A stretch of 64,000 nucleotides of DNA. Source: Acidobacteriota bacterium (GTDB taxonomy: Bacteria; Acidobacteriota; Vicinamibacteria; Vicinamibacterales; 2-12-FULL-66-21). Shown here in pieces: positions 22,826 to 41,454 of this stretch; within the stretch, counting starts at the first letter, position 1; the number at the start of each line of letters is the position of its first letter. Made by a program: the position numbers and the translations under genes. Below the pieces are notes generated by a model. The model searched no databases, was not told where the DNA came from, and saw only the letters and a list, made by a program, of their open reading frames with translations. Location: assembly GCA_013813355.1 (NCBI GenBank), contig JACCRT010000015.1, positions 1,328 to 65,327 of the forward strand, given 5' to 3'.

Positions 22826-24694
22826 TTACCGGCCGGCCGGGCCCCGGGCGTCTACCTCGATCGTCAAGGTCCGGGAGCCGCGGACGGCTGAATCCATGGT
22901 GAGTTCCCACTCGCCAACGGCGGCGTTGCGAATCGGCGTGTAGCTTCCGCCGTTGCGATCCCCCTCAAACACCGACAGCACCGACGGCGGCAGGGACGTC
23001 AGCGCTTCGCCGTTGACGACGGCGCCCGGCGTGCCCGCGAGTAACCGGACGTAGATCCGGTTGTTCCGGCGCGTGTTGTTCAGGACCCGAATGAGCTGCG
23101 CCACGCTGTCGGGCTGCATCGAGCGGCGCATCTCCCGCTGCTCGAGGGCGTTCAGCTGCTGTCCATCGGTGACCAGGATAGAGAGCGGGCCCGACACGTT
23201 GGCGGGGATGTCCACCTGGATCGTGGAAATCTTCTCTTCGCCGCGATAGCTGCGGGTGAGGATCTTGAGCGGCACCGTGCGCCCGGCGCGGGGGCGAATC
23301 TCGTCGAGCCAGACCCGCTCGATCGTGACGCTTCGCGGCACCTCGCTGGCGCTGATCGTGATGTCGAGCTCCTCGATTGTAATGGGCTCTCGCTCGTTGC
23401 CGAGCAGCATCGTGAGCGGGCCGGCCACCGCGGTCGCGACGCCGGTGGTGGCGGTGTCGCCTGTGAACACGTCTCGCAGCGCCACGTCATCGTGCCCCTT
23501 GATCCGGGTGCGGCTGCTGACCGAGAACGTGGCCGATCCGAACTGCCGTTCGTACGCCGTGATCGTATTGAACATGGCGACGTAGGTGAGCAGCGACGTG
23601 AACGTCTGATCGTTGACGACCTCGTAGGTGAACGAACGGCGGGAGGTCTGCCCGTCCCGGTCGGACTCCAGGGTCACCTTTACCGGGATCATTGTCGGCC
23701 CCTTGCCGAGCGTTCCCGCGATAGCCGTGGCGCGATCCTGCTGGACGGTGCCGACGACCTCGCCCATGGAGGAGATCTTGAACGACGACATCAGGCTGGG
23801 CAGCATGGTGTAGACATACGCCCGCGTCATCGGGAACTCGGTCGGCCCGAGGTTGAAGAAGGGGTGGCCGAACGCGTAAACACGGTCTCCGTCGATGTGC
23901 GTGATGGTTCCCGTGGCTCCCATCTCGAAATCGCCGCCCACCAGCGTGACGCCGACCGCATCCCCCTCGCGCAGCGGGCCGGTCATCCTGCGCAGTTCCT
24001 CCGACAGCTGCCCGGCGGCGCCGCCGCCTATCACGGGCGTGAAGCCAGCGTCCCGGAAGGCGGCCGACAGCAGGTCCACCGTTTCGGGCTCGAAGCCCGT
24101 CATCACGAGCGGCGTCGAGATGGGCCGCAGCATCGCGCCGAGCCGGGCCCCGGCTGCCGACGGTACGCCGATCGCCTGCACGTCAGCCGGACGTGCCGCG
24201 AAGGGCGCCAGGCGCGCATGGGCCGCGCTGAGCGCCGCGGCCAGCCCCTCGCGCGTCACCGGCAGATCGATGCGGGCCTGCTGCCCGCCACGGCGACGGG
24301 CCATCGCCGTGGCGTCCTTCATCTCGGCGATCGGCGTGATCCCCGCGATCGGCTCCTTCGAAAACGCGCCAACCGAGTACGACACCGCCCCGACAAGTCG
24401 ACCGTCGATGTAGACCGGGCTGCCGCTCATTCCCTGGGCGACGCCCGTTTCCGCGAGCGGCCCCCCTTCGAGCCGGGCCAGGATGAGATCGCGCTTTGGG
24501 CCCTGGACGTTGCGCAGGACGCCGAGCACATGGACCTGGAACTCCTCGAGTTGCGTGCCTTCGAAGACCGTCCGCCCGACCCCGACCATTCCCGGACGCA
24601 CCTCCTCGATCGGCATCAGCAACGTGGTGGCGGGCACCGGAATCCAGAGGAGCGCAGAGACAGCTAGCGCCGACAATGCAGTGCGGAAGGTCAT
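22826..24694 (-). CDS. exported protein with N-terminal SpoIVB-type (S55) serine peptidase domain
   Basis: Signal peptide, then H (QVHVLGV), D (DLILARL) and S (GMSGSPVYIDGRLVGAVSY) in chymotrypsin-fold order. GMSGSP..G.V.GAV is the S55 signature. The C-terminal ~500 aa is unassigned. Confidence 0.7.
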   Translation of the reverse strand: MTFRTALSALAVSALLWIPVPATTLLMPIEEVRPGMVGVGRTVFEGTQLEEFQVHVLGVLRNVQGPKRDLILARLEGGPLAETGVAQGMSGSPVYIDGRLVGAVSYSVGAFSKEPIAGITPIAEMKDATAMARRRGGQQARIDLPVTREGLAAALSAAHARLAPFAARPADVQAIGVPSAAGARLGAMLRPISTPLVMTGFEPETVDLLSAAFRDAGFTPVIGGGAAGQLSEELRRMTGPLREGDAVGVTLVGGDFEMGATGTITHIDGDRVYAFGHPFFNLGPTEFPMTRAYVYTMLPSLMSSFKISSMGEVVGTVQQDRATAIAGTLGKGPTMIPVKVTLESDRDGQTSRRSFTYEVVNDQTFTSLLTYVAMFNTITAYERQFGSATFSVSSRTRIKGHDDVALRDVFTGDTATTGVATAVAGPLTMLLGNEREPITIEELDITISASEVPRSVTIERVWLDEIRPRAGRTVPLKILTRSYRGEEKISTIQVDIPANVSGPLSILVTDGQQLNALEQREMRRSMQPDSVAQLIRVLNNTRRNNRIYVRLLAGTPGAVVNGEALTSLPPSVLSVFEGDRNGGSYTPIRNAAVGEWELTMDSAVRGSRTLTIEVDARGPAGR

Positions 24695-24700
24695 ACAGGT

Positions 24701-24730
24701 AGATTACGCAGCTAACTGCTTGCTGGTCAA
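24701..24730 (-). promoter_or_regulatory. sigma70-type promoter TTGACC-N18-TAATCT, with the -10 element 6 nt from ATG 24694 (leaderless-type)
   Basis: Minus-strand reading: TTGACC at 24730-24725, TAATCT at 24706-24701, then ACCTGT and ATG. Confidence 0.55.
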
Positions 24731-24749
24731 GGAGAAACAGGGACGCCGT

Positions 24750-24779
24750 TTGACAGCAGCGCTCGGGCTCTGCTATCGT
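24750..24779 (+). promoter_or_regulatory. sigma70-type promoter TTGACA-N18-TATCGT (TG at 24771-24772) for the aro/trp leader
   Basis: Perfect -35 hexamer at 24750-24755, and an extended -10-like TGCTATCGT at 24771-24779. Confidence 0.55.
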
Positions 24780-24789
24780 CACATGGATT

Positions 24790-24888
24790 TTGACGTTCCA
24801 TCACCTCCTTCGGCCGTCACCCCCGCGCTATCACGCCGGCCAGTTTGCCTGGTGGTGGTACGGGTGTGCTGAGGGGGCGGATTTCTAA
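24790..24888 (+). CDS. candidate leader peptide MTFHHLLRPSPPRYHAGQFAWWWYGCAEGADF (TTG start)
   Basis: Three consecutive TGG codons at 24850-24858 are flanked by Phe and Tyr codons. Third-position GC is higher than in the alternative ATG frame. The frame contains no ATG or GTG, so the start is uncertain. Confidence 0.4.
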   Translation: MTFHHLLRPSPPRYHAGQFAWWWYGCAEGADF

Positions 24889-24912
24889 CCTGCACGGCAG
24901 GGACGAAGACAG

Positions 24913-24949
24913 GAGCCTCCTCAGCATTCGCTGAGGGGGCTTTTTTTTT
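24913..24949 (+). terminator. intrinsic terminator (attenuator terminator) upstream of aroDE
   Basis: An 11-bp stem pairs GCCTCCTCAGC (24915-24925) with GCTGAGGGGGC (24930-24940) around loop ATTC. It is followed by T9 at 24941-24949. Confidence 0.85.
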
Positions 24950-24977
24950 GCCTCGGATCAAGAACGGATGACACGGA

Positions 24978-26471
24978 TTGGCTGAGCCGCTGCTTTGTGA
25001 AACGGTGACGGGGCGGACGATGGACGAGGTTCGGCGCGCCCGGGATTCGTCAGCCGCCGACATGGTCGAGGTGCGGCTCGACGGCGTCACACGGCCCGAC
25101 GGTTTCGGCGCCATCGAAGGCCGACGTCGCCCGGTCATCGTCACGTGCCGGCCCATCTGGGAAGGCGGATTGTTCGATGGAGCCGAAGAGGAGCGCCACC
25201 GGCTGCTCGGCGACGCATTCAGGGGAGGGGCCGAGTTCGTGGACGTCGAGGCGCAGGCGCCCTTCGTCCCCGAGATTGCCAGGATGCGCCGCGGCGATCG
25301 TGGTCTCGTGCTGTCGCGGCACTTCTTCGGCGAGGCGCCCCCCGGAAACCTCGCGGAGCTGGCCTCGGCAATGCACGCCAAGGGCGCCGAGGTCGTCAAG
25401 CTGGCCTTCGAAGCCCGGCGGCTCGTGGATCTGCTGCCGCTCATGACGCTGGCGGATACGCTGTCGCGCAACGAGTCCGGCGAGGCGGCGGGGCACGTGC
25501 TCATCGCGATGGGGGCGCCCGGTGTCACCTCGCGCATTCTCTCGAGACGACTGCACAATCGGTGGAGCTATGCCGGCGACGGCGTGGCGCCCGGCCAGGT
25601 CCCGCTGCAGCGCATGGTCGACGAGTTCCACGTCCGGCGCATCGCCGCGGATGCCGATCTGTACGGCGTCGTCGGCAATCCAGTGATGCACTCGCTCTCG
25701 CCCGCGATGCACAACGCCGGCTTCGCGGCGCTCGGAATGAATGCGGCTTACCTGCCGCTCGAGGCGGCCACCCTGGAGGACTTCGTGGCGTTTGCCGGAA
25801 GCATGCATCTGCGCGGCGCCAGCGTGACCGCGCCGTTCAAAGTCGACATGCTCCAGCACGTGCATGTGCTCGATCCGGTGGCCAGGCAGATCGGTGCGGT
25901 AAACACGATCACGATGCGCGATGGGCAGTGGGAGGGCGCCAATACCGATGTCGAAGGCTTTCTCGCGCCGCTCTCCGGTCGCCTGCGGCTCAAGGGCACA
26001 CGCGCCAGTCTGCTCGGCGCCGGTGGCGCCGCACGGGCGGTTGCCGCTGCTCTGGCGCGCGAAGGCGCACAGGTCACGGTCTGCGCCCGGCGACCCGAGG
26101 CGGCCGCGAAAGTTGCGGCACTCGCCCACGGACGTGTCTCCAGGATTCCTCCGGCCGCGGGCAGCTGGGATGTCCTGATCAACACCACCTCCTGCGGGAG
26201 CGCCGCACAACCGGGCAACCTCATGGCGGGGGAGCCCCTCACCGGCGAGATCGTCTTCGACCTCGTCTATGCACCCGCCGACACCGCGTTGCTGCAGCAC
26301 GCGCGCGCGGAAGGCTGTCTCACCATTGGCGGACTCGAGATGCTCGTCGCACAAGCCGAGCGGCAGTTCGAAATCTGGACCGGGCAGCGCCCGCCCGGCG
26401 GCCTGTTCCTGGCTGCCGCCGACAGCGCGCTCCGAGCGACCGCTCCAAAGGCCGAGGCACATACGCTGTGA
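24978..26471 (+). CDS. bifunctional 3-dehydroquinate dehydratase (type I) / shikimate 5-dehydrogenase fusion
   Basis: The N-terminal half is AroD-like (LCETVTGRTMDEV..., VVKLAFEA). The C-terminal half is AroE-like (YGVVGNPVMHSLSPAMHNAGF, LLGAGGAARAVA). The start is TTG. Confidence 0.85.
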   Translation: MAEPLLCETVTGRTMDEVRRARDSSAADMVEVRLDGVTRPDGFGAIEGRRRPVIVTCRPIWEGGLFDGAEEERHRLLGDAFRGGAEFVDVEAQAPFVPEIARMRRGDRGLVLSRHFFGEAPPGNLAELASAMHAKGAEVVKLAFEARRLVDLLPLMTLADTLSRNESGEAAGHVLIAMGAPGVTSRILSRRLHNRWSYAGDGVAPGQVPLQRMVDEFHVRRIAADADLYGVVGNPVMHSLSPAMHNAGFAALGMNAAYLPLEAATLEDFVAFAGSMHLRGASVTAPFKVDMLQHVHVLDPVARQIGAVNTITMRDGQWEGANTDVEGFLAPLSGRLRLKGTRASLLGAGGAARAVAAALAREGAQVTVCARRPEAAAKVAALAHGRVSRIPPAAGSWDVLINTTSCGSAAQPGNLMAGEPLTGEIVFDLVYAPADTALLQHARAEGCLTIGGLEMLVAQAERQFEIWTGQRPPGGLFLAAADSALRATAPKAEAHTL

Positions 26472-27964
26472 AGCAGACGACCTTCGAGGAGTTCGTGGAG
26501 CTGTCCCGGCGCGGCACGTTCGTGCCGATTGTGAAGGAAATCATGGCAGACCTGCTCACGCCGGTCTCGGCCTTCCTCAAGATCGCGGAGCATTCCGACT
26601 ACGCGTTCCTGCTTGAGAGCGTCGAGGGCGGGGAGCGGGTCGCGCGCTACTCCTTCCTGGGCAAGGACCCTTTCCTGGTGCTGCGCCAGCACGGCGGCCG
26701 CACGGTGCTGGACCGCTCGGGCGTCACGACGGAGAGTGACGAGCCCTTCGTGGCCGTGCTGCGCCGGTTGATGGCGGAGTTCCGCGCGCCGTTCGTTCCC
26801 GGCCTGCCGCGATTCACCGGCGGGGCGGTAGGCTTCGTCGGGTACGACGCCTCGCCGCTGTTCGAACCGGCACTCCGCGACGCCTTCGTGCGCGCCGCCC
26901 GGCGCGGGATCGAAGGCGCCGAGATCGAGGACGACGCCGGCTTCATGCTGTTCGATACCGTCCTGGCCTTCGATCACGTCAAGCACCGCATCCTCGTCGT
27001 CGCCAACGCCCGCATCACGCCTGACGAGGATCTCCGCGCGCTCTACCAGTTCGCCTGCGCCAAGATTCAGTTCCTCGAGGGGGAATTGCAGCGAGGGCTC
27101 TCGCAGAGCGAGCGGCGCGTCGAAGGCCTTCCGCCCATGCGGTCCAACTTCACGCAGGAAGCGTTCGAGTCGGGCGTGCGGACCATCCAGGATCGCATCG
27201 GCGCCGGCGAGATCTACCAGGCCGTACTGTCGCAGCGCTTCGAGGTGGACGTCACGGCCGATCCGTTCACAATCTACAGGGCCCTGAGGCACGTGAATCC
27301 CTCGCCGTACATGTACTTCATCCGGATGGGCGCGCTCGCCATCGTGGGCTCCTCACCCGAGATGCTCGTGCGCGTGGAAGGACCGCACGTCGAAACCCAT
27401 CCGATTGCCGGCACCCGCCCGCGGGGAACCAGCGACGAGGACGACCTGCGGCTTGCCGAGGAGTTGAAGCGCAACGAGAAGGAGCGCGCCGAACACGTCA
27501 TGCTCGTGGACCTCGGCCGCAACGACCTGGGTCGCGTCTGCGAATACGGCTCCGTCCGCGTGCCCCAGTACATGACGCTCGAGCGGTACTCGCACGTGAT
27601 GCACCTCGTCTCGCGGGTTGAAGGGAAGCTGGCCGATGACCGCGACCACCTGGACGCGCTGGTCGCATGCTTTCCCGCCGGCACCGTGTCGGGCGCGCCG
27701 AAAATCCGGGCGATGGAAACGCTGGCGGAGCTCGAGCCCACCGCCCGCGGCCTGTACGGGGGAGCCATCGGCTACATCGACTTCGCCGGCAACCTGGACT
27801 TCTGCATCGCCATCCGCACCATCACCATCCGCAAGGGCCGCGCGCACGTCCAGGCCGGCGCCGGCATCGTCGCCGACTCGAATCCGGCGGCCGAGTTCGA
27901 GGAGACCCGCGACAAGGCGCGCGCGATGCTCCACGCGCTCCAGATGGCCGAGGCGGGGCTGTGA
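26468..27964 (+). CDS. trpE: anthranilate synthase component I
   Basis: Motifs LLTPVSAFLKI, LVDLGRNDLGRV and GGAIGYIDF. The GTG start at 26468 overlaps the aroDE stop as GTGA. Confidence 0.95.
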   Translation: MKQTTFEEFVELSRRGTFVPIVKEIMADLLTPVSAFLKIAEHSDYAFLLESVEGGERVARYSFLGKDPFLVLRQHGGRTVLDRSGVTTESDEPFVAVLRRLMAEFRAPFVPGLPRFTGGAVGFVGYDASPLFEPALRDAFVRAARRGIEGAEIEDDAGFMLFDTVLAFDHVKHRILVVANARITPDEDLRALYQFACAKIQFLEGELQRGLSQSERRVEGLPPMRSNFTQEAFESGVRTIQDRIGAGEIYQAVLSQRFEVDVTADPFTIYRALRHVNPSPYMYFIRMGALAIVGSSPEMLVRVEGPHVETHPIAGTRPRGTSDEDDLRLAEELKRNEKERAEHVMLVDLGRNDLGRVCEYGSVRVPQYMTLERYSHVMHLVSRVEGKLADDRDHLDALVACFPAGTVSGAPKIRAMETLAELEPTARGLYGGAIGYIDFAGNLDFCIAIRTITIRKGRAHVQAGAGIVADSNPAAEFEETRDKARAMLHALQMAEAGL

Positions 27965-28139
27965 ACCACCCGCGTGTACGCGCGGGTGCGCCGTACCGGG
28001 CGGCTTCCGCTGTCGTCTCTTCGGACCGGAGGTCAGGCGATCGGGAGATCAGGACGCGGAACAGGCTGGGGGGCTGGCTCTCTGCCGAATGCGGTGGCGC
28101 GCCTATTCTCCAGACCTCTTCACCCCGTGTGACACAGAC

Positions 28140-28700
28140 GTGCTGCTGCTGATAGACAACTACGATTCGTTCACGTGGAACCTGGCCCAGTACTTCGGAG
28201 AGCTGGGCGCGCCGCCGCTCGTCAGGCGCAACGACGAGATCTCGGTCGAGGAGATCGCGGCGCTTCGGCCGGACCGGATCGTGATATCGCCCGGGCCGGG
28301 TCGCCCCGAGGACGCGGGGATCTCGATCGACGTCATCAGGCGCTTCGGCCCGGAGCGCCCCGTACTCGGCGTCTGCCTGGGCCACCAGGGCATCGGCGCC
28401 GCGTTCGGCGGGCAGATCGTCCGCGCGCACGAACTGATGCACGGCAAGACGTCGAGCGTGCTGCACGACGGGCGCGGGGTCTTCAAGGGGCTGTCACCCG
28501 CATTTGCGGCGGGACGCTACCACTCGCTCGTGGTCGCCGAACCGTTGCCGCCGGACCTGGAGTCAGCCGCCCGGACGGAGGACGGAACGATCATGGGGCT
28601 GCGGCATCGCGAGTACCCGATTCACGGGGTGCAGTTCCATCCCGAGTCGATCCTGACGGCCGAGGGGCGGCGGCTGCTCCGAAACTTCCTGGAGTTGTGA
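28140..28700 (+). CDS. trpG: anthranilate synthase component II (glutamine amidotransferase)
   Basis: LLLIDNYDSFTWN, catalytic GVCLGHQ, and HPES. The start is GTG 28140, with an alternative ATG at 28089. Confidence 0.9.
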   Translation: MLLLIDNYDSFTWNLAQYFGELGAPPLVRRNDEISVEEIAALRPDRIVISPGPGRPEDAGISIDVIRRFGPERPVLGVCLGHQGIGAAFGGQIVRAHELMHGKTSSVLHDGRGVFKGLSPAFAAGRYHSLVVAEPLPPDLESAARTEDGTIMGLRHREYPIHGVQFHPESILTAEGRRLLRNFLEL

Positions 28701-29731
28701 TGTTTGCCCCATTGCTCGAGAAGCTGCAACGGCGTGAGGACTTGACGGTGGAGGAGGCGGCCGCCGCCATGGAGGCCATCATGGACGGCCAGGCGCAGCC
28801 GGCCCAGATCGCCGGCCTTCTCATCGCACTCGCCATGAAGGGTGAACGCCCCGCCGAAATTGTCGGTTTCGCGCAGACGATGCGCGCGCGGGCTTCGAAG
28901 CTGTCGTCGAACTACCACCCGGTGTTCGATACATGCGGAACGGGCGGTGACCGCGCGCACACGTTCAACGTGTCCACCATCGCAGCGCTGGTCGTGGCCG
29001 CCTGTGGCGTCCGGGTGGCGAAACACGGCAACCGTTCCGTCTCGAGCCGCTGCGGCAGCGCGGACGTCTTCGAGGCGCTCGGGGTACACGTGTCCGCCGC
29101 GCCGCCCGTGGTCGAACGCTGCCTGGACGAGGCGGGGATTGCGTTCTTCTTCGCTCCGACGTTCCATCCCTCGATGCGGCACGCGGCACCCACGCGAAAG
29201 GAACTCGGCGTCCGCACCGCCTTCAACCTGCTCGGGCCCCTGACGAATCCCGCTGGCGCCACGCGGCAGCTCGTCGGCGTGCCGCGGCCCGAGCTGACCG
29301 AGCTCGTGGCGCGCGCGCTGGCGTGGCTCGGGACCGAACGAGCCTGGGTGGTGCACGGGGCCGACGGGCTCGACGAGATCTCAACCACGGGGTACACGAA
29401 GGTGTCGGAGTGCCGCGCCGGTACGGTGAACACGTTCTACGTCCACCCCGCCGATTTCGGCGTGTCCAAGTCTGCGCCAGCCGCGCTCCTGGGTGGTGAT
29501 GCCGAGCAGAACGCGGGAATCGCGCGCGCGGTCCTCGACGGCGCCGCCGGGGCGCCGCGCGACATCGTGTTGATCAATGCCGCGGCCTCGCTCCTCATCG
29601 CCGGTCGTGCGTCGACGATGGCCGAGGGGATGGCGCAGGCCGCCGAGGCGGTCGACAACGGAGGGGCAGCAGCCGCGCTCGATCGGCTGGTCGAGATCTC
29701 TCGTGCCGGGCAAGAGGCCGTGACGTCATGA
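28700..29731 (+). CDS. trpD: anthranilate phosphoribosyltransferase
   Basis: DTCGTGGD motif and KHGNRSVSS. ATG 28700 overlaps the trpG TGA by 1 nt. Confidence 0.95.
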   Translation: MFAPLLEKLQRREDLTVEEAAAAMEAIMDGQAQPAQIAGLLIALAMKGERPAEIVGFAQTMRARASKLSSNYHPVFDTCGTGGDRAHTFNVSTIAALVVAACGVRVAKHGNRSVSSRCGSADVFEALGVHVSAAPPVVERCLDEAGIAFFFAPTFHPSMRHAAPTRKELGVRTAFNLLGPLTNPAGATRQLVGVPRPELTELVARALAWLGTERAWVVHGADGLDEISTTGYTKVSECRAGTVNTFYVHPADFGVSKSAPAALLGGDAEQNAGIARAVLDGAAGAPRDIVLINAAASLLIAGRASTMAEGMAQAAEAVDNGGAAAALDRLVEISRAGQEAVTS

Positions 29732-30528
29732 CCGTTGCGGCACCGGACCTGCTGCACACGATTGTCGCGGCCGCGACGCGGATCGTCGAAATTCGCCAGG
29801 AGGCGCGCCCGGCGCGGCAGCTCGAAGCCTCGCTGGTCCGGGCGCCCGCGGGCCGTGCGTTCGCAGCTGCCCTGCGGGCCACGGGCGGCCTCAAGGTAAT
29901 CGCGGAGTGCAAGCGCCGGTCGCCCTCGAAGGGCACCCTGCGCGAGGCGTACGACCCCGCAGAGCACGCCCGGGCTTACGCAGACGCTGGCGCCGCCGCG
30001 ATATCCATACTCACCGAACCGACGTTCTTCGACGGCGCGCCCGAGCACCTCTCGGCAGCCCGTGCCGCGGTACACGTGCCACTGCTGCGGAAGGACTTCA
30101 TCGTTTCGGAGTACCAGCTGCTCGAAGCCGCTGCGCTGGGCGCCGACGCCGTACTGCTGATCGTCGGAGCGCTCGACGGTGCCGCGTTGAAGAACCTGGT
30201 GCGGGCGGCCGAGTGGCTCGGCCTGGCCTCACTGGTGGAGGTTCACGATCTCGGCGAGTTGCGGCGAGCCCTGGAGGCCGGGGCGACCATCGTCGGCGTG
30301 AATAGCCGCAATCTGCGGACGCTGGAGGTGGATCACGGCATCCAGGAACAGCTCGCCGGCCACCTGCCCGCCGGCGTGACGACGGTCGCGGAGAGTGGCA
30401 TCCGTACGCACGCCGACCTCGTGCGACTCGGTGCGTTGGGTTACCACGCCTTTCTCGTCGGCGAGCAGCTCATGACGACACCCGATCCAGGCGCGGCCCT
30501 GCGGGAGCTGCTGGGGGAGCACCCGTGA
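29728..30528 (+). CDS. trpC: indole-3-glycerol phosphate synthase
   Basis: ECKRRSPSKG motif and LRKDFI. Four-nt overlap with trpD. Confidence 0.95.
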   Translation: MTVAAPDLLHTIVAAATRIVEIRQEARPARQLEASLVRAPAGRAFAAALRATGGLKVIAECKRRSPSKGTLREAYDPAEHARAYADAGAAAISILTEPTFFDGAPEHLSAARAAVHVPLLRKDFIVSEYQLLEAAALGADAVLLIVGALDGAALKNLVRAAEWLGLASLVEVHDLGELRRALEAGATIVGVNSRNLRTLEVDHGIQEQLAGHLPAGVTTVAESGIRTHADLVRLGALGYHAFLVGEQLMTTPDPGAALRELLGEHP

Positions 30529-31127
30529 GGGTCAAAATCTGCGGCATCACGCGAGCCGAGGATGCGCGACTGGCCGCAGCGCTCGGCGCAGCCGCCGTCG
30601 GCTTCGTGTTCTGGCCTCGCAGCCCGCGCTGCATACACCCGGATGTCGCACGTGCGATCGTCGCGGACCTGCCGGCCCACGTCAGGGCGGTCGGTGTTTT
30701 TGTCGATCAGCCTGTCGAGGAGGTGGCCCGCGTGGTCCGGACGGTTGGCCTCGGCGCCGTGCAGCTTCACGGCCGCGAGGATTCAGGGCCGTTCGAAGCA
30801 CTCGGCCTGCCGATCATCAAGGCTGTCGCGGTAGGGGCCGGGTTCGTTCCCGCATCGGTAGCGACAATCCCGCCGACGGTGATGGTGCTGCTCGACGCGC
30901 ATGACCCGGCGAAGCGGGGGGGGACCGGCCGCACGATCGACTGGAGCCTCGCGGCTCGGGTCGCGGCCACGCGCGACACGGTGCTCTCGGGAGGGCTGGA
31001 TCCAGCGAATGTTCGCGCGGCGATCGCACAGGTCCGGCCGTACATGATTGACGTCTCTTCGGGCGTGGAGTCGGTGCCGGGCATCAAGGATCCCGCCCGC
31101 CTGCGCGCGTTGTTCCAGGAAGTGTAG
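30525..31127 (+). CDS. trpF: phosphoribosylanthranilate isomerase
   Basis: VKICGIT N-terminus and DVSSGVE. Four-nt overlap with trpC. Confidence 0.9.
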   Translation: MRVKICGITRAEDARLAAALGAAAVGFVFWPRSPRCIHPDVARAIVADLPAHVRAVGVFVDQPVEEVARVVRTVGLGAVQLHGREDSGPFEALGLPIIKAVAVGAGFVPASVATIPPTVMVLLDAHDPAKRGGTGRTIDWSLAARVAATRDTVLSGGLDPANVRAAIAQVRPYMIDVSSGVESVPGIKDPARLRALFQEV

Positions 31128-32345
31128 ATGGAACCATCATTCGGCAGGCGTGACCCTGATGCGCGCGGATACTTTGGCGCGTATGGTGGACGATTCGTTC
31201 CGGAGACGCTCGTGGCGCCTGTCGAGGCACTCGAACGGGCCTACCGGGCGGCCCGGGACGAGCCGGCGTTCCGGGCGGCACTGGCGCGTCTGCTGAGGGA
31301 CTTCGTCGGCCGCGCGACGCCCCTCTACGAGGCCCGGCGCCTGTCGGCCTCTCTCGGCGGAGCACGCATCTTTCTGAAACGAGAAGACCTTGCGCATACC
31401 GGAGCGCACAAGATCAATAACGCCCTGGGCCAGGCCTTGCTGGCACAGCGCATGGGCAAGCGCCGCATCGTCGCCGAGACCGGCGCCGGTCAGCACGGCG
31501 TGGCGACGGCCACGGCCTGTGCGCTGCTCGGCCTGTCGTGCGAGATCTACATGGGTGCGGAAGACATGGAGCGGCAATCGCTCAACGTGTTCCGCATGCA
31601 GTTGCTCGGAGCCACCGTGCGGCGCGTGGACGCCGGCGCCCGAACGCTGAAGGATGCGATCAACGAGGCGATGCGCGACTGGGTCACGAACGTGGTCGAC
31701 ACCTACTACCTGCTCGGGTCCGTCCTGGGGCCGCATCCCTATCCGCTCATGGTCCGTGAGTTCCAGTCGGTGATCGGCCAGGAGGCCCGTGCCCAGTGCC
31801 TTGACCAGGTCGGCCGGCTTCCCGACGCCGTCGTCGCCTGCATTGGAGGCGGCAGCAACGCGATGGGTATTTTCGATGCGTTCCTGGGCGACGAGTCGGT
31901 CCGCCTCGTAGGCGTCGAGGCGGGTGGGCATGGGATCGAACGCGGGCAGCACGCGGCGCGGTTCGCCGGCGGAAGCGCAGGCGTGCTCCAGGGCACCCGC
32001 AGCTACGTCCTGCAGGACGAGGCGGGCAACATCGAGCTGACGCACTCCATCTCGGCCGGCCTCGACTACGCCGCCGTCGGGCCTGAGCATGCCTGGCTGC
32101 ACGAGACAGGGCGCGCGGAATACACCTGGGTCGACGACACCGCCGCGCTGCAGGCCTTCCAACGACTCGCGAGAGAGGAAGGAATCCTGCCCGCGCTCGA
32201 GTCGTCGCACGCGATTGCCCATGCATGTCGCCTCGCCCCCGGGCTGCCGCCTGACGGCGTGCTGCTGGTGAACTTGTCGGGACGCGGCGACAAGGATGTC
32301 CTGAGTGTCCAGAAGGTCCTGGACGCCGTGGAGGAGCGCCGCTGA
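31128..32345 (+). CDS. trpB: tryptophan synthase beta chain
   Basis: YGGRFVPE and the PLP-lysine motif HTGAHKINN. Confidence 0.97.
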
Positions 32346-33139
32346 TGTCGCGGCTTGACGGCTCGTTCGCACGCATTCGGGCACAGGGCGGGCCGGGTCT
32401 CGTGACCTACGTCACCGCTGGCGACCCCGATGCGGCGACGTCCGTGCGGATCCTCGTGGCGATCGCGAGGGCGGGCGCCGACGTGCTCGAGGTCGGGGTA
32501 CCGTTCTCGGACCCGCTCGCCGATGGTCCGGTCATCCAGCGCGCCAGCGAGCGGGCGCTCGCGTCGGGCATGACGCTGGCGGGGGCGCTCGACGTGGTTC
32601 GCGCCGTCCGGCGCGAAGTGGACACACCGATCGTCCTCTTTACCTACGCCAACCCGGTCGTGCGGATGGACGCCTCCGTGTTCGCCCGCTCGGCACGAGA
32701 CGCGGGCGTGGACGGCGTGCTCATCCTCGATCATCCGATCGAAGAGGCGGAGCCGCTGCGGAGCCTGCTGGTCGAGGCCGGCGTCGATCCGATCTTCCTG
32801 GTCAGCCCGACGACCAGCGATGAGAGGATTCGACGGTCAGCCGAGCTGGGCCGCGGGTTCCTCTACGTGATCTCGCGACTCGGCATCACCGGCGTCAGCG
32901 ACCAGGTGGCGAGCGGCGCCGCCGGCCTCGTCACCCGCGTCCGCGCCGGTGCTGCGGGGTTGCCAATCGCTCTCGGCTTCGGCATCTCGCGACCGGAACA
33001 CGTGCTGGAGGCATGCGCGACGGCGGACGCGGCGGTCGTCGGCAGTGCCCTGGTCAGCGTTATCGCGGCGCACGGTTCGGCAGCCGATGTCGACGCGCGC
33101 GCAGCCGGGTTCGTCCGGTGGCTGAAAGGGACGGCATGA
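32345..33139 (+). CDS. trpA: tryptophan synthase alpha chain
   Basis: FSDPLADGPVIQ motif. One-nt overlap with trpB. Confidence 0.95.
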   Translation: MSRLDGSFARIRAQGGPGLVTYVTAGDPDAATSVRILVAIARAGADVLEVGVPFSDPLADGPVIQRASERALASGMTLAGALDVVRAVRREVDTPIVLFTYANPVVRMDASVFARSARDAGVDGVLILDHPIEEAEPLRSLLVEAGVDPIFLVSPTTSDERIRRSAELGRGFLYVISRLGITGVSDQVASGAAGLVTRVRAGAAGLPIALGFGISRPEHVLEACATADAAVVGSALVSVIAAHGSAADVDARAAGFVRWLKGTA

Positions 33140-33435
33140 GCCGCCGGCTCGACGATCTGCGCCGCAGCATGGACGAGATCGACGCGCAGCTGGTCGAGCT
33201 GCTGAGCGCCAGGGCCACCTGCGCGCTCGAGATCGGACAGGTCAAGAAGCAATGCGGCATGCCGGTGTATCAACCCGCCCGTGAAAGCGACGTCCTGGCC
33301 CACGTGCAGCGGATCAACCAGGGGCCGCTCGACGACGGGGCCGTGAAGCGGCTCTTCGAGCGGATCATCGATGAGGCTCGACGCCTGGAGCGACTCGCGG
33401 AGGCAGGGCAGGGAGAGCCGGAGCCTCCACGCTAG
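33136..33435 (+). CDS. chorismate mutase (AroQ class, monofunctional)
   Basis: LRRSMDEIDAQLVELLSARA helix, typical of AroQ. ATG 33136 overlaps the trpA stop as ATGA. Confidence 0.85.
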   Translation: MSRRLDDLRRSMDEIDAQLVELLSARATCALEIGQVKKQCGMPVYQPARESDVLAHVQRINQGPLDDGAVKRLFERIIDEARRLERLAEAGQGEPEPPR

Positions 33436-33598
33436 TCCCCTCGGAAGCGTCATGCGTTGCCTACGTCCCGGAGCGCGGCGCCCGGATCGCCAGGCGCGAC
33501 GACCGCGCATAGTGGGCCTCTGTAGGGGAGGAGCAACGCCGCGAGCCGGGATGCCCCGCCCGGGACGTATGTGACGCATCACGTTTCCAGGGGACTAG
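33432..33598. other. 167-nt long-stem inverted-repeat element (structured RNA or MITE-like)
   Basis: The arms 33432-33471 and 33560-33598 pair over about 39 bp, with 2 mismatches, 1 bulge and 3 G-U pairs. The termini are CTAGTCCCCT and AGGGGACTAG. An 88-nt GC-rich apical part contains sub-hairpins. Confidence 0.6.
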
Positions 33599-33713
33599 AA
33601 TAGACACGACGACACGCGGATTTTGAACGGATTCGACAGGGGACGGAATCACACGGCAGCCGCTGCGGCGTGCTGCGAACGGTCAGCTGCCTGCTTCAAG
33701 AGCGATAATTTTT

Positions 33714-34760
33714 ATGGTTGTGGTCATGCAGGAGCGCGCGACGGACGAGCAGATCCAGAGTGTCATCGCGCAGCTCGTGGGGATGGGATTCGACGTGCAC
33801 CGGTCCACGGGGTCGCTGCGGACCGTGATCGGTGCAGTCGGGCCGACAACAGGCGACCCTCGCCTCGTGGAGATGCTCGACGGGGTGAAGGAAGTGTTGC
33901 GGATTACGGAGCCTTACAAGCTGGCCAGCCGCACGTTCCGGCCCGAGAACACCGTAATCACGATCGGCGACGTCCGGATCGGCGGGGACGAAGTGATCGT
34001 CATGGCGGGCCCGTGCTCGGCAGAGAGCGAGGAACAGGTCGAAGCCAGCGCGGCGGCCGTGCGGCGCGCCGGCGCGAAGATCCTCCGCGGCGGGGCGTAC
34101 AAGCCGCGAAGCTCGCCGTACAGCTTCCAGGGGCTCGGCGAGGACGGCCTGCGGCTGCTGCGCGGCGCCGCCGATCGCCACAACCTGAAGCTGGTCTCGG
34201 AGGTGATGGATATCAGCCAGCTCGAGACGATCCTGCGCTATGCCGATATCCTGCAGGTCGGCGCCCGCAACATGCAGAACTTCACGCTGCTGCGCGAACT
34301 GGGTCGCACCCGGAAGCCGGTGCTGCTCAAGCGCGGCATCTCGGCGACTATCGAGGAGTGGCTCCTCTCGGCCGAGTACATCCTGGCCGGCGGGAACGCC
34401 GACGTCATGCTATGCGAGCGAGGCATCCGAACGTTCGAAAGCTACACGCGCAACACGCTCGACATCTCGGCGATCCCCGTCGTCCAGAAACTGAGCCACC
34501 TCCCGGTCCTTGTCGATCCCAGCCACGGCACCGGGCGCCGCGACAAGGTCGCCCCGATGGCCCGCGCCGCCGTCGCGGCCGGCGCCGACGGCCTGCTCAT
34601 CGAGGTGCACTGCGATCCTGACCACGCGCTCAGCGACGGTGCACAGTCGCTGTTCCCCTCCCAGTTCGATCGCCTGATGGCCGAGCTCCGGATCATCGCC
34701 CCGGCGATCGGTCGCAGTATCTGCCTCGAGCCCGTGGCTCGCCGCGGCTGGGGAACGTAG
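33714..34760 (+). CDS. aroF: 3-deoxy-7-phosphoheptulonate (DAHP) synthase, class I-beta with N-terminal regulatory (ferredoxin-like) domain
   Basis: N-terminal ~70-aa domain ([21 protein letters not shown]...) followed by a catalytic barrel with [13 protein letters not shown]. Confidence 0.9.
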
Positions 34761-34763
34761 GGA

Positions 34764-34792
34764 AAGGCTGAAGGGCTGAAGGATGAAGGTTC
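34764..34792. repeat. degenerate heptad array AAGGCTG AAGGGCTG AAGGATG AAGGTTC
   Basis: Read directly. The array starts 4 nt after the DAHP synthase stop and shares GAAAGGCTGAAGG with the arrays at 3805 and 19034. Confidence 0.8.
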
Positions 34793-34809
34793 ACGGGGGA
34801 TTTTGACCC

Positions 34810-35736
34810 ATGCCCACCCGGCTCCCGATGGCTGACACTCGGCGCGAATCGAGCGCGCCCCCGCCGTTTGCACGGGTCGCGATCGTCGGCTTCGGGTTGA
34901 TTGGCGCCTCGCTGGGTCTCGCGATCAAGCAACGGTGGCCGCAGGCGCTGGTCATCGCCGTGGACCGCAAAGACGTCATCGAGACCGCCATGCGGATGCA
35001 CGCGGCGGACGTCGGCGGCGACGACCTGGTGCTGGCGGCTGAAGCTGAGCTGATCGTGCTGGCGGCACCGGTCCAGGCCAACCACCGCATCCTTCGCGAA
35101 CTCGCGGACCATGTCCCCGGCGTTGCGCTGGTCACAGACGTGGGCAGCACCAAGCGGGAAACCGTGGCGGCGGCACAGGCGCTTCCCGAACGGCTCCGCT
35201 TCATCGGCGGGCACCCGCTCGCCGGCGCAGCCGTCGGAGGCATCGAGGCCGCGCGTGGGGACCTGTTCCATGGCCGCCCCTGGATCCTCACCCCGAGCTC
35301 GTCACGCCACGAGACCGGCCTCCTGGGCACGATGCTCGAAGCCATCGGTGCGCAGGTGCGGACGCTGGCGCCCGAGGCGCACGACGCGCTCGTCACGTAT
35401 CTCAGCCACCTGCCGCAGCTCGTCGCCTCGGCCCTGATGCACGTGGTCGGCACGCACACGGGCGCAGAGGGCCTCGCCCTCGCGGGGCGCGGGCTGCGTG
35501 ACTCGACGCGTCTCGCCACGAGCCCACCAGGCGTCTGGCGGGACATCGTGGCCACAAATCACGACAACATCAGCGCCGCGCTGGACGATCTGATCGAGGT
35601 ACTGCGCCGGTTGCAGGCCGGAGAGGGCGCGGCCGACGACCTCGGACGCACGTTCGAGTCGGCGGCTGACTGGAAGCGCACGCTGGAACAGGCCTTCGAT
35701 GATCCCGCCATCACGAGCCGCGAAGGAGGCGCGTAG
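34810..35736 (+). CDS. tyrA: prephenate dehydrogenase
   Basis: Rossmann motif [14 protein letters not shown] and GGHPLAG. Confidence 0.9.
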
Positions 35737-39915: not shown

Positions 39916-39921
39916 TATAAT
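39916..39921 (+). promoter_or_regulatory. -10 hexamer TATAAT placed 6 nt before ATG 39928 (leaderless-type pepA promoter)
   Basis: TATAAT, then TGCCGA, then ATG, read directly. Confidence 0.5.
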
Positions 39922-39927
39922 TGCCGA

Positions 39928-41454
39928 ATGCCCATGATCGAACTGGCCCCGGTGCTCGCCCTGGCGAGGTCACCCCTTTCCGAGATCGATACTGACTTAC
40001 TCATTGCGCCGATATTCGAGGGTGAAGGACTCCCGGAGGACCTTGTCAGCACAGACGACGCGGCGGCCGGAGCGGTCGGGAGGGCTATCGAAGCAGGAGA
40101 GGTCCGGGGCCGCCCCTTTGAGACATTTCTCACGCCCGTGACGGGCTGGAAGTCGAGCCGTGTCGCCCTTGTCGGCGCGGGGCCGGCGGCCGACTTCACC
40201 ATCGAGCGGCTCCGCCGCCTCGCCACCGTCGCGGCGCTGGACGCCCGGCGCCGGCGAATCCGCCGCATCGGCTGGATCAACCGCGGGGGCTTGCCCGCAG
40301 CGGCCGCCGTGCAGGCGACGACAGAAGGCCTCCTGCTCGCCACGTTCAGCGCCGATTCCTACAAGAGCGGGGAACGGGATTGCGCCCCACCCGAGCAGTT
40401 GACGGTTGCCGTCACCAGCAGCGGGGGCTCCGAACTCGAGGCCGCTCTCGAACGCGGGCGCATCCTGGGAGAGTGCAGCAACCTTGCGCGCCAGCTGTGT
40501 AACGAGCCGTCGAACGTCCTGACACCGACCGTGCTGGCGGAGCGCGCCTTTGCGCTCTGCGACGGATCCGGCTTGTCGATCGACATCCTGGACGAGCAGA
40601 GGATTGCCGCGCTCCACATGGGTCTGCTGCTTGGGGTGGCCCGCGGCAGCGCGGAGCCTCCGCGCGTCATCGTCATACGGCACGATCCGCCGGGCGCCCC
40701 CGCGTCGCCGGTACTCGGCCTGGTAGGCAAGGGCGTGACGTTCGATACCGGCGGCATCTCGATCAAGCCTGCCGACGGCATGGAACGGATGAAGGATGAC
40801 ATGGCAGGGGGAGCGGCGGTCATCTGTGCCATGCGCGCCATCGCGCTGCTGAAGGCGCCCATCCGGGTCATCGGGGTGGTGCCGGCTACCGAGAACATGC
40901 CCGGCGGCCGCGCGATGAAGCCGGGCGACGTCCTGACGTCCGCCAACGGCAAGACGGTCGAGATTATCAACACGGACGCGGAAGGGCGGCTGATCCTCGG
41001 CGACGCGCTCTGGTATGCGCAGTCGCTCGGCGCCACTCACCTCGTGGACGTGGCCACGCTGACCGGCGCCTCGGTGGTAGCCCTCGGCAAGGCGGCCGCA
41101 GCCATCTTCGGACGGCCAGACGGCTGGGTCGAGGTCGTCCGACGGACGGCCCTCGCCGCCGGCGATCGGTGCTGGCCGATGCCGCTCTACGACGAATACC
41201 GGGATCAGCTCAAGAGCGAGATTGCGGACATGGTGAACTCCGGCGGTCGGCCCGCCGGGGCGTGCACGGCGGCGAGGTTCCTGCAAGAGTTTGCGGCCGA
41301 GACCCCGTGGGTGCACCTCGATATCGCAGGCACCGCCTGGGCGGAAGAAGCCAAGGCGTGGCAGCCGAAGGGACCGACGGGGGTCGCCGTCAGGACACTG
41401 GCCGAGCTGGCGTTCGTGGACCCTGCCAGCTTTCCGCGCGGTCTAAGCGATTGA
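39928..41454 (+). CDS. pepA: leucyl aminopeptidase (M17)
   Basis: VGKGVTFDTGG and NTDAEGRL motifs. Confidence 0.95.
   Translation: MPMIELAPVLALARSPLSEIDTDLLIAPIFEGEGLPEDLVSTDDAAAGAVGRAIEAGEVRGRPFETFLTPVTGWKSSRVALVGAGPAADFTIERLRRLATVAALDARRRRIRRIGWINRGGLPAAAAVQATTEGLLLATFSADSYKSGERDCAPPEQLTVAVTSSGGSELEAALERGRILGECSNLARQLCNEPSNVLTPTVLAERAFALCDGSGLSIDILDEQRIAALHMGLLLGVARGSAEPPRVIVIRHDPPGAPASPVLGLVGKGVTFDTGGISIKPADGMERMKDDMAGGAAVICAMRAIALLKAPIRVIGVVPATENMPGGRAMKPGDVLTSANGKTVEIINTDAEGRLILGDALWYAQSLGATHLVDVATLTGASVVALGKAAAAIFGRPDGWVEVVRRTALAAGDRCWPMPLYDEYRDQLKSEIADMVNSGGRPAGACTAARFLQEFAAETPWVHLDIAGTAWAEEAKAWQPKGPTGVAVRTLAELAFVDPASFPRGLSD

What the first reader, a model, noticed from the sequence alone, without database searches (positions are those of the whole stretch)
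24750..24949. Candidate ribosome-mediated attenuator with an F-A-W-W-W-Y leader in front of the aromatic supraoperon
The sequence shows five linked elements. (a) A promoter TTGACA(24750-24755)-N18-TATCGT(24774-24779) with TG at 24771-24772. (b) A frame that opens after TGA 24751-24753 and reads, from TTG 24790, MTFHHLLRPSPPRYHAGQFAWWWYGCAEGADF, ending at TAA 24886-24888. It carries TGG TGG TGG at 24850-24858, flanked by TTT (Phe) and TAC (Tyr). (c) The 11-mer GCTGAGGGGGC occurs twice, as copy A at 24868-24878 and copy C at 24930-24940. Both copies are complementary to B, GCCTCCTCAGC at 24915-24925. (d) B:C followed by T9 (24941-24949) is a textbook intrinsic terminator, and A:B is a mutually exclusive antiterminator. 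(e) A begins 9 nt after the last Trp codon, and the leader stop codon lies 7 nt beyond A. The inference is the classical trpL logic. A ribosome that reaches the stop codon masks A, so the terminator forms. A ribosome stalled at the Trp (or Phe/Tyr) codons leaves A free to sequester B, so transcription reads through into aroDE-trpEGDCFBA-CM-DAHPS-tyrA. There are two caveats. The W frame has no ATG or GTG, and TTG 24790 would sit only about 3-4 nt from the predicted transcription start. The downstream aroDE gene also starts with TTG in a similar context (ACACGGATTG versus ACATGGATTTTG). I am not aware of leader-peptide trp attenuators described for this kind of high-GC diderm lineage.
Basis: partly seen in the sequence, partly recalled or inferred. 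Interest (0 to 1): 0.8.

Follow-up and report, generated by a model that had tools for sequence, protein, structure and literature searches.

The report
Tryptophan leader-peptide attenuator in Acidobacteria
A short upstream reading frame with three tryptophan codons, plus a switchable terminator hairpin, very probably lets this soil acidobacterium turn its 11-gene aromatic amino-acid operon on only when tryptophan runs short; this is the classic E. coli trp mechanism, here conserved across a poorly studied order.

Summary

- **Context:** The window is from a Vicinamibacterales (Acidobacteriota) MAG. The leader sits 28 nt upstream of aroDE-trpEGDCFBA-aroQ-DAHPS-tyrA.
- **Conservation of the frame:** 76 related species-level genomes had enough upstream sequence. 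65 carry TGGTGG(TGG) 105-240 nt before aroDE, 10 carry interrupted or aromatic variants (WRW, YWYWYY, SWFWFLYF), and 1 has no leader.
- **Start and stop:** 62 of 64 loci have an in-frame TTG, ATG or GTG 8-18 nt after a conserved extended -10 box. Out-of-frame starts occur in only 1 and 2 loci. The stop lies 36 nt after the first Trp codon in 48 of 66.
- **RNA switch:** The antiterminator A:B is 95% paired across 53 sequences, with 6 of 11 pairs changed on both sides. The terminator B:C is 98.5% paired.
  - two extra covarying hairpins;
  - Tyr codons flanking the Trp run;
  - a start codon so close to the promoter that the transcript is nearly leaderless.
- **Weak point:** A 1:2 anti-antiterminator is only weakly supported.
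- **Prior knowledge:** No Rfam family matches, and I found no paper describing this for Acidobacteria.

Verdict: a new member of a known kind. No experiment exists yet.

The parts
24750..24755 (+). -35 hexamer TTGACA of the leader promoter
   Evidence: The best -35 is TTGACA in 32 of 64 related loci and TTGCNN in 24 more, at 17-18 nt spacing from the -10.
24771..24779 (+). Extended -10 box TGcTATCGT
   Evidence: TGnTAnnnT is present at the equivalent place in 64 of 66 leaders.
24786..24787 (+). Predicted transcription start (inferred only), giving a 5' UTR of about 3-4 nt
   Evidence: Inference from the usual distance between a -10 box and the start site (7th-8th nt after the hexamer). The spacer between the -10 and the start codon is 9-10 nt in 43 of 62 loci. 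Not mapped experimentally.
24790..24888 (+). Leader ORF (trpL-like), TTG start, 32 codons, TAA stop
   Evidence: An in-frame TTG, ATG or GTG lies 8-18 nt after the -10 in 62 of 64 loci, against 1 and 2 loci for the other two frames. Homologous peptides read ...SYWWWYAxAEGA(V/I)R*.
24805..24814 (+). Possible segment 1 (CUCCUUCGGC), which can pair with arm A as an anti-antiterminator
   Evidence: It pairs with A in the minimum-free-energy fold. The YTCAGC motif is present in 20 of 63 loci against a 2.2% background. Duplex energy is no better than controls, and pairing in the MAFFT register is only 60%. Inconclusive.
24838..24849 (+). Degenerate copy of the conserved hairpin just 5' of the Trp codons (GGC/GCC here; GGGAC-N6-GUCCU in relatives)
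   Evidence: 80% of cells paired, 5 of 5 pairs changed on both sides, slid controls 40-59%. In the window only 3 pairs remain.
24850..24858 (+). Three tandem Trp codons (regulatory codons), flanked by Phe 24844-46 and Tyr 24859-61
   Evidence: Tyr makes up 27.5% of the 3 codons either side of the Trp run, against 1.9% in the rest of the leaders.
24868..24878 (+). Arm A (segment 2), the 5' half of the antiterminator
   Evidence: A:B is 95.2% paired over 53 sequences, with 6 of 11 pairs changed on both sides. Per-locus duplex: median -22.9 kcal/mol, z = -4.0.
24889..24901 (+). Small hairpin CCUGC-ACG-GCAGG directly after the stop codon, inside the antiterminator loop
   Evidence: 69.6% paired, 4 of 5 pairs changed on both sides.
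24915..24925 (+). Arm B (segment 3), shared by the antiterminator and the terminator
24930..24940 (+). Arm C (segment 4), the 3' half of the terminator
   Evidence: B:C is 98.5% paired, with 6 of 11 pairs changed on both sides. RNAalifold gives this hairpin as the consensus structure.
24911..24949 (+). Complete intrinsic terminator: 15-pair stem, 4-nt loop, T9
   Evidence: -25.7 kcal/mol. A comparable hairpin plus T-run was found in all but about 10 of 66 relatives; those 10 have a bulged stem that my simple finder missed.
24978..35736 (+). Regulated operon: aroD-aroE fusion, trpE, G, D, C, F, B, A, aroQ chorismate mutase, DAHP synthase, prephenate dehydrogenase
   Evidence: Pfam matches. trpE follows aroDE in 80 of 80 related loci.

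Best explanation
This is a ribosome-mediated (leader-peptide) transcription attenuator that senses charged tRNA-Trp and controls the aromatic supraoperon.

**Sequence of events (inferred)**
1. Transcription starts a few nt upstream of UUG 24790. A ribosome starts there without a Shine-Dalgarno sequence.
2. When Trp-tRNA is plentiful, the ribosome runs to UAA 24886. With the stop codon in its A site it covers roughly 24871-24898, which includes arm A.
3. Arm B then pairs with arm C. The hairpin plus U9 releases RNA polymerase before aroDE.
4. When Trp-tRNA is scarce (and possibly Tyr-tRNA too), the ribosome stalls at 24850-24858. Its front edge reaches only about 24863-24870, so A stays free.
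5. A pairs with B as soon as B is transcribed. C is left single-stranded and polymerase reads through.

**Shown here**
- All sequence elements are present.
- They are conserved in relatives.
- The ORF is kept in frame.
- The helices covary.
- The energies fit the model.

**Inferred only**
- The position of the transcription start.
- Use of UUG as the start codon.
- The ribosome footprints.
- The response to Trp.
For: **Operon identity.**

**Conservation of the regulatory codons.** 65 of 76 usable Vicinamibacterales loci have TGGTGG(TGG) upstream of aroDE. 10 more have WRW, YWYWYY, SWFWFLYF or single-W variants.

**Evidence of translation.**
- An in-frame start is present in 62 of 64 loci, against 1 and 2 for the other frames.
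- TTG, ATG and GTG interchange at the same position.
- The length before the Trp run ranges from 14 to 29 codons and is always in frame.
- The stop lies 36 nt after the first Trp codon in 48 of 66 leaders.

**Helices.**
- A:B is 95.2% paired with 6 of 11 pairs changed on both sides, against 40-54% for slid controls.
- B:C is 98.5% paired.
- The per-locus A:B duplex beats all 200 shuffles in 42 of 63 loci.

**Energies in the window.**
- Antiterminator -30.2 kcal/mol; terminator -25.7 kcal/mol.
- Masking 24871-24898 gives the terminator fold.
- Folding the transcript only as far as B, with the ribosome-covered part masked, gives A:B.

**Uniqueness.** This is the only strong intrinsic terminator in the 60 kb scanned.
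Against: - There are no expression data and no mapped 5' or 3' ends.
- The start codon is UUG, only about 3 nt from the predicted 5' end, with no Shine-Dalgarno sequence. In model bacteria, efficient leaderless initiation needs a 5'-terminal AUG or GUG (own knowledge).
- The anti-antiterminator (1:2) that completes the classical scheme is not statistically supported.
- In the window the hairpin before the Trp codons is degenerate.
- With the third Trp codon in the A site, 1-3 nt of arm A would already be covered.
Confidence: 0.85

Rival explanations
1. The A:B / B:C switch is real, but a protein or small ligand sets it by binding the conserved UGGUGGUGG-containing RNA (as TRAP or a riboswitch would). 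The Trp 'codons' would then be an RNA motif, not translated.
For: - The run and its flanks are conserved at the nucleotide level.
- A covarying hairpin sits directly 5' of it.
- There is no Shine-Dalgarno sequence, and the start codon is weak.
Against: - Start and stop stay in frame through many length changes, and TTG, ATG and GTG interchange at one position.
- The run is replaced by other aromatic codon mixes (WRW, YWYWYY, SWFWFLYF). These keep the amino-acid class rather than the RNA sequence.
- No Rfam family matches.
- There is no (G/U)AG repeat array of the TRAP type.
Confidence: 0.05
2. The small ORF mainly acts at another level, with the hairpin plus U-run playing a minor part. Examples would be Rho-dependent polarity, or translational coupling or reinitiation into aroDE.
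For: - In many relatives the aroDE start is only 10-30 nt from the U-run.
- Canonical intrinsic terminators are otherwise rare in this genome, so Rho may dominate termination here (inference).
Against: - A 13-15 bp GC-rich stem followed by 5-9 U is conserved in nearly all loci, and RNAalifold returns it as the consensus.
- The alternative A:B pairing covaries. That is only needed if formation of the terminator is the regulated step.
Confidence: 0.06
3. Besides acting in cis, the terminated leader RNA or the 32-aa peptide has a function in trans, as rnTrpL and peTrpL do in Sinorhizobium. This would be additional, not exclusive.
For: There is precedent in PMC6614838. The C-terminal ...AEGA(V/I)R is conserved.
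Against: - AEGA is encoded by arm A itself, so the RNA constraint explains its conservation.
- The N-terminal half and the codons between the Trp run and A vary freely.
- No target is known.
Confidence: 0.08
4. Chance: an ordinary constitutive terminator and promoter with an accidental TGG run.
For: TGGTGGTGG occurs a second time in the window, and 8 of 100 shuffles give at least 2 matches.
Against: The whole arrangement is conserved in 75 of 76 genomes whose AroDE proteins are only 48-67% identical to the window's.
Confidence: 0.01

Closest known systems
Enterobacterial trp operon leader (trpL attenuator; Rfam RF00513 Trp_leader)
   Same: - A short leader ORF with tandem Trp codons.
- Mutually exclusive antiterminator (2:3) and terminator (3:4) followed by a U-run.
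- A ribosome at the stop codon masks segment 2, and a ribosome stalled at the Trp codons frees it.
   Different: - No sequence or covariance-model similarity.
- The ORF has 32 codons instead of 14, and three Trp codons instead of two.
- Arm A lies inside the ORF rather than after the stop codon.
- There is no Shine-Dalgarno sequence, and the start is UUG a few nt from the 5' end.
- The 1:2 hairpin is not established.
- It controls an 11-gene aromatic supraoperon that begins with aroDE.
Leaderless leader peptides of Deinococcus deserti, including the trpEGD leader (PMC4007540)
   Same: - A high-GC diderm.
[quoted passage not shown]
- It was predicted to act in transcription attenuation of amino-acid genes.
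   Different: - A different phylum, and no sequence relationship was tested.
- The D. deserti leaders start with AUG or GUG and have mapped start sites.
- Here most leaders start with UUG about 3 nt from a start site that is only predicted.
Actinobacterial trp leader peptides (Corynebacterium glutamicum trpL, Streptomyces venezuelae trpE leader)
   Same: High-GC genomes with Trp-codon leader ORFs, and experimental support for Trp-dependent attenuation (cited in PMC4833913; PMC1262725).
   Different: A different phylum and a monoderm envelope. These control a different gene set (trpE or the trp operon only). Homology was not tested here.
Sinorhizobium meliloti trpL / rnTrpL attenuator (PMC6614838)
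   Same: A ribosome-dependent Trp attenuator upstream of trpE(G). The terminated leader is released as a small RNA.
   Different: That leader is a 14-aa peptide preceded by a Shine-Dalgarno sequence, with proven trans functions. Nothing of that kind is shown here.

Membership tests
Ribosome-mediated (leader-peptide) amino-acid attenuators | A short ORF with start and stop codons in the 5' leader, upstream of the first structural gene | tested here: met
   an in-frame start in 62 of 64 loci and a conserved stop position.
Ribosome-mediated (leader-peptide) amino-acid attenuators | Tandem regulatory codons for the amino acid made by the operon | tested here: met
   WWW in the window. At least two tandem TGG codons in 65 of 76 loci, and aromatic variants in 10 more. 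The operon encodes Trp biosynthesis.
Ribosome-mediated (leader-peptide) amino-acid attenuators | An intrinsic terminator between the leader ORF and the first gene | tested here: met
Ribosome-mediated (leader-peptide) amino-acid attenuators | An antiterminator helix that shares one strand with the terminator, supported by covariation | tested here: met
   95.2% paired, 6 of 11 pairs changed on both sides; z = -4.0; -30.2 against -25.7 kcal/mol.
Ribosome-mediated (leader-peptide) amino-acid attenuators | Geometry: a ribosome at the stop codon covers the 5' antiterminator arm, and a ribosome at the regulatory codons does not | tested here: met
   Distances read from the sequence: 9 nt from the Trp run to A, and 7 nt from A to the stop. 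The distance is conserved. The footprint sizes come from general knowledge, not from measurement in this organism.
Ribosome-mediated (leader-peptide) amino-acid attenuators | A 1:2 pause or anti-antiterminator hairpin | tested here: inconclusive
   Present in the window's minimum-free-energy fold. The motif occurs in 20 of 63 loci, but energies are no better than controls, and pairing is 60% in the MAFFT register.
Ribosome-mediated (leader-peptide) amino-acid attenuators | Readthrough that depends on the supply of the amino acid and on translation of the leader | not testable with these tools
   Needs RNA-seq, Term-seq or reporter assays.
Rfam Trp_leader (RF00513) and other curated leader families | A match to the family covariance model | tested here: not met
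   no leader family appears even at E up to 10. Only weak terminator-like hits were found (ctRNA models at 24 bits).
Leaderless mRNAs | Transcription start at, or within a few nt of, the start codon, and no Shine-Dalgarno sequence | tested here: inconclusive
   The gap between the -10 box and the start codon is 8-13 nt in 57 of 62 loci, and no Shine-Dalgarno sequence is present. The start site is not mapped, and the predicted UTR is about 1-6 nt rather than 0.

The most novel reading that the evidence does not exclude
The leader peptide is translated from an almost leaderless transcript, with a 5' UTR of about 3 nt and no Shine-Dalgarno sequence. Most species of the order use UUG as the start codon. 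That would be leaderless-type initiation at a non-AUG, non-5'-terminal codon.

A second part of this reading concerns the regulatory codons. The flanking Tyr codons, and the YWYWYY and SWFWFLYF variants, would make the element a combined aromatic amino-acid sensor. That would fit an operon that also holds common-pathway and tyrosine-branch genes.
Probability: 0.4. Interest if true: 0.6.

Novelty: new member of a known kind. Interest (0 to 1): 0.42.

Why it matters
- **Phylogenetic reach.** It extends classical leader-peptide attenuation to Acidobacteriota, an abundant soil phylum that is barely tractable genetically. A 2010 survey noted that almost no predicted attenuators in this phylum had an assigned function (PMC2965389).
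- **A usable model.** It gives a well-defined, conserved cis-regulatory element with about 75 natural sequence variants. These can be used to study gene regulation and transcription-translation coupling in the phylum.
- **Annotation.** It provides a rule for a small ORF that gene callers are likely to miss (NCBI's name for the adjacent AroDE protein is the only annotation I checked).
- **Translation initiation.** It is a natural test case for initiation at UUG, GUG or AUG codons a few nt from a 5' end.
- **Metabolic logic.** It suggests that Trp charging governs the whole aromatic supraoperon in these bacteria.

Tried and rejected
1. **Rfam.** A search of 24500-25200 at E up to 10 found no leader, T-box or riboswitch family, only terminator-like noise.
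2. **Segment 1 (anti-antiterminator).**
   - In the MAFFT register it is only 60% paired.
   - Its duplex energy against A is no better than dinucleotide shuffles (median z = -0.2).
   - It is no better than random windows from the same locus (median p = 0.2).
   - Only the YTCAGC motif is enriched (20 of 63 loci against 2.2%).
   - I kept it as possible, not established.
3. **ATG 24783 in another frame** (MDFDVPSPP...VVVRVC*). It is not conserved in relatives, which have no ATG there. Rejected.
4. **TTGACG at 24790 as a second -35 box.** No -10-like hexamer lies at 16-19 nt, and ATG or GTG replace TTG in other loci. Rejected.
5. **My simple terminator finder.** It mis-called about 10 loci whose stems carry a bulge. 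By eye those loci do have the hairpin.
6. **Literature.**
   - No paper combines Acidobacteria or Acidobacteriota with leader peptide and attenuation for trp.
   - The review by Merino, Jensen and Yanofsky (2008; PMC2387123) is not held.
   - I could not read Lopatovskaya et al. (2010).
   - An earlier mention therefore cannot be excluded.
7. **Searches not run.** I judged a metagenome scan, a protein search with the leader peptide and a covariance model unnecessary for the verdict.

Full report
**Observation.** Reading 24400-25300 confirms every coordinate in the finding.
- TTGACA is at 24750-24755, followed by 18 nt and TATCGT at 24774-24779, with TG at 24771-24772.
- An ORF runs from TTG 24790 to TAA 24886-24888 and encodes MTFHHLLRPSPPRYHAGQFAWWWYGCAEGADF. 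TGGTGGTGG lies at 24850-24858.
- GCTGAGGGGGC occurs at 24868-24878 (A) and 24930-24940 (C). Its complement, with one G.U position, is at 24915-24925 (B).
- T9 lies at 24941-24949.
- The promoter scan scores the promoter 10 of 12 with the TG extension and finds a 15-pair hairpin plus T-run.
- Over the 60 kb scanned, that hairpin is by far the strongest terminator-like site. The other hits are at chance level.
- The leader folds at -81.2 kcal/mol, z = -4.45.

**Context.** Pfam confirms the downstream genes:
- an aroD-aroE fusion (24978-26471);
- trpE, trpG, trpD, trpC, trpF, trpB and trpA;
- an AroQ chorismate mutase;
- a DAHP synthase with a ferredoxin-like domain;
- prephenate dehydrogenase.

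The upstream gene is divergent and encodes an S55-type peptidase, so the terminator cannot belong to an upstream gene. The AroDE protein is identical to one from an Acidobacteria MAG, and all close relatives are Vicinamibacterales.

**Comparative test of the leader ORF.** I fetched 80 species-level genome loci carrying AroDE homologues that are 48-67% identical to the window's protein.
- 76 have enough upstream sequence. Of these, 65 carry TGGTGG or TGGTGGTGG 105-240 nt before aroDE.
- Ten more carry interrupted or mixed aromatic runs: WRW, YWYWYY, SWFWFLYF or a single W. One (L072) has no leader.
- The Trp frame encodes a recognisable peptide family...SYWWWYAxAEGA(V/I)R*.
- The stop codon lies 36 nt after the first Trp codon in 48 of 66 leaders.
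- An extended -10 box, TGnTAnnnT, is present in 64 leaders. In 62 of those, an ATG, GTG or TTG in the Trp frame lies 8-18 nt downstream (mode 9-10). Only 1 and 2 loci have a start codon in the other two frames in that interval.
- Start codon usage is TTG 37, ATG 16 and GTG 9.
- The distance from the start to the first Trp codon ranges from 14 to 29 codons and is always in frame.
- Start-codon interchange at one position, together with frame-preserving length changes, is the signature of a translated ORF.
- Tyr codons are strongly enriched next to the Trp run: 27.5% against 1.9% elsewhere in the leaders.

**RNA structure.** I counted pairs on a MAFFT alignment of 53 leaders (A2).

| Helix | Cells paired | Pairs changed on both sides | Slid controls |
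|---|---|---|---|
| Antiterminator A:B | 95.2% | 6 of 11 | 40-54% (counted together with the post-stop hairpin) |
| Terminator B:C | 98.5% | 6 of 11 | not counted for this helix alone |
| Hairpin after the stop codon (24889-24901) | 69.6% | 4 of 5 | not counted for this helix alone |
| Hairpin 5' of the Trp codons (GGGAC-N6-GUCCU) | 80.2% | 5 of 5 | 40-59% |

- RNAalifold returns the terminator as the consensus structure, with 9 of 14 pairs showing compensatory change.
- Locus by locus, the best partner of B upstream is always the sequence 14-38 nt after the Trp run. The median duplex energy is -22.9 kcal/mol and the median z is -4.0. In 42 of 63 loci, none of 200 shuffles does as well.
- The hairpin 5' of the Trp codons is reduced to three pairs in the window itself.
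- Energies in the window:
  - The A-to-B structure folds at -30.2 kcal/mol, against -25.7 for the terminator.
  - Masking the footprint of a ribosome at the stop codon (24871-24898) gives the terminator fold.
  - Folding the transcript only as far as B, with everything up to 24865 masked (ribosome stalled at the first Trp codon), gives A:B.

**Segment 1.** The window's minimum-free-energy fold pairs 24805-24814 with A, as a classical 1:2 hairpin would. A YTCAGC motif identical to part of B is present in 20 of 63 loci, mostly at one fixed position, against a 2.2% background. However, duplex energies are no better than shuffles or random genomic windows. I therefore treat the anti-antiterminator as possible, not shown.

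**Promoter and initiation.**
- The -35 box is TTGACA in 32 of 64 loci and TTGCNN in 24 more, with a 17-18 nt spacer.
- Only 95 nt separate the divergent start codons, and nothing resembling a Shine-Dalgarno sequence precedes the leader start.
- SD-like GGAG-type sequences do precede trpA, trpF and other genes in the window.
- With the usual spacing between a -10 box and the transcription start, the 5' UTR would be about 1-6 nt, and about 3 nt in the window. This is inferred, not mapped.
- Two other genes in the window look truly leaderless. The S55 peptidase gene has TAATCT-N6-ATG on the minus strand, and the M17 aminopeptidase gene at 39928 has TATAAT-N6-ATG.
- Leaderless genes were predicted for 9.7-19.4% of genes in three acidobacterial genomes (PMC3160421).
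- Deinococcus deserti has mapped leaderless leader peptides, including one for trpEGD (PMC4007540).

**Mechanism (inferred).**
1. A ribosome initiates at the 5'-proximal UUG.
2. With charged tRNA-Trp available, it reaches the stop codon and sits on arm A. B pairs with C and transcription ends at the U-run.
3. When Trp-tRNA is scarce, the ribosome stalls at 24850-24858 and arm A, 9 nt further on, is free. A pairs with B and polymerase continues into aroDE-trp-aroQ-DAHPS-tyrA.
4. The hairpin before the Trp codons may pause polymerase until the ribosome arrives. This last point is speculation.

**Rivals.**
- A protein- or ligand-controlled switch is made unlikely by the codon-level evidence.
- A purely Rho-dependent or translational mechanism is made unlikely by the conserved terminator and the covarying alternative helix.
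- Chance is excluded by conservation.
- A trans function of the released RNA or peptide cannot be excluded. The conserved AEGA is encoded by arm A, so the RNA constraint already explains it.

**Comparison and novelty.** The element works like the E. coli trp leader but is not a sequence member of any Rfam family. The nearest analogues are the leaderless leader peptides of Deinococcus and the actinobacterial trp leaders. I found no description for Acidobacteria. A 2010 survey stated that almost no predicted attenuators in that phylum had an assigned function, and that leader peptides were then known only from Proteobacteria and Actinobacteria (PMC2965389). Two relevant papers could not be read, so an earlier mention is possible. 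I class it as a new member of a known kind. The unusual secondary feature is near-leaderless initiation, mostly at UUG.

Noticed in passing
window 24692-24730, minus strand: The divergent S55 (SpoIVB-like) peptidase gene has a promoter TTGACC (complement of 24725-24730), 18 nt, TAATCT (complement of 24701-24706), then 6 nt and its ATG (24694). In this genome it therefore looks leaderless. In most relatives the same conserved promoter (TTGACC-N17/18-TATAAC) lies 25-40 nt before the homologous start (MKIRTAAAALAL).
   Followed up: partly
window 39916-39930: The M17 leucyl aminopeptidase gene (39928-41454) is preceded by TATAAT, 6 nt, then ATG. This is a second candidate leaderless gene in the window.
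   Followed up: no
L049 (about 226-100 nt before aroDE); L079 (about 270-150 nt before aroDE); L022, L059, L073, L076: Some relatives have replaced the WWW run with other aromatic mixes: YWYWYY (L049), SWFWFLYF (L079), and WRW or WRWYW (L022, L059, L073, L076). This suggests the leader can be retuned to sense Tyr and Phe as well as Trp.
   Followed up: partly
One lies directly after the leader stop codon (CCUGC-N3-GCAGG). The other lies directly before the Trp codons (GGGAC-N6-GUCCU in relatives, degenerate in the window). Their roles are unknown; a polymerase pause is one possibility.
   Followed up: partly
window 1-60000: Canonical intrinsic terminators (GC-rich hairpin plus T-run) are at or below chance level across the window, apart from the leader terminator. 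Ordinary gene ends in this genome seem not to use them.
   Followed up: partly
L072:2670-3000: One relative has no leader at all. aroDE is preceded closely by another same-strand ORF and a TTGACA-like box. This may be a natural loss of the attenuator.
   Followed up: no
L025 and L037, 18 nt after the Trp run: In two relatives a short deletion puts the TGA inside arm A (GCTGAGG) in frame, so the leader ORF ends at A rather than 7 nt after it. This geometry is closer to that of E. coli trpL.
   Followed up: no
window 22254-22262, minus strand: The only other TGGTGGTGG in the window lies within the span of the 759-aa ORF 20503-22782. I assume it is coding and unrelated.
   Followed up: no
window 24978 versus relatives: aroDE starts with TTG in the window (MAEPLLC...) but with ATG in most relatives (MRxPLLC...). 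The distance from the terminator U-run to the aroDE start is only about 10-30 nt.
   Followed up: no
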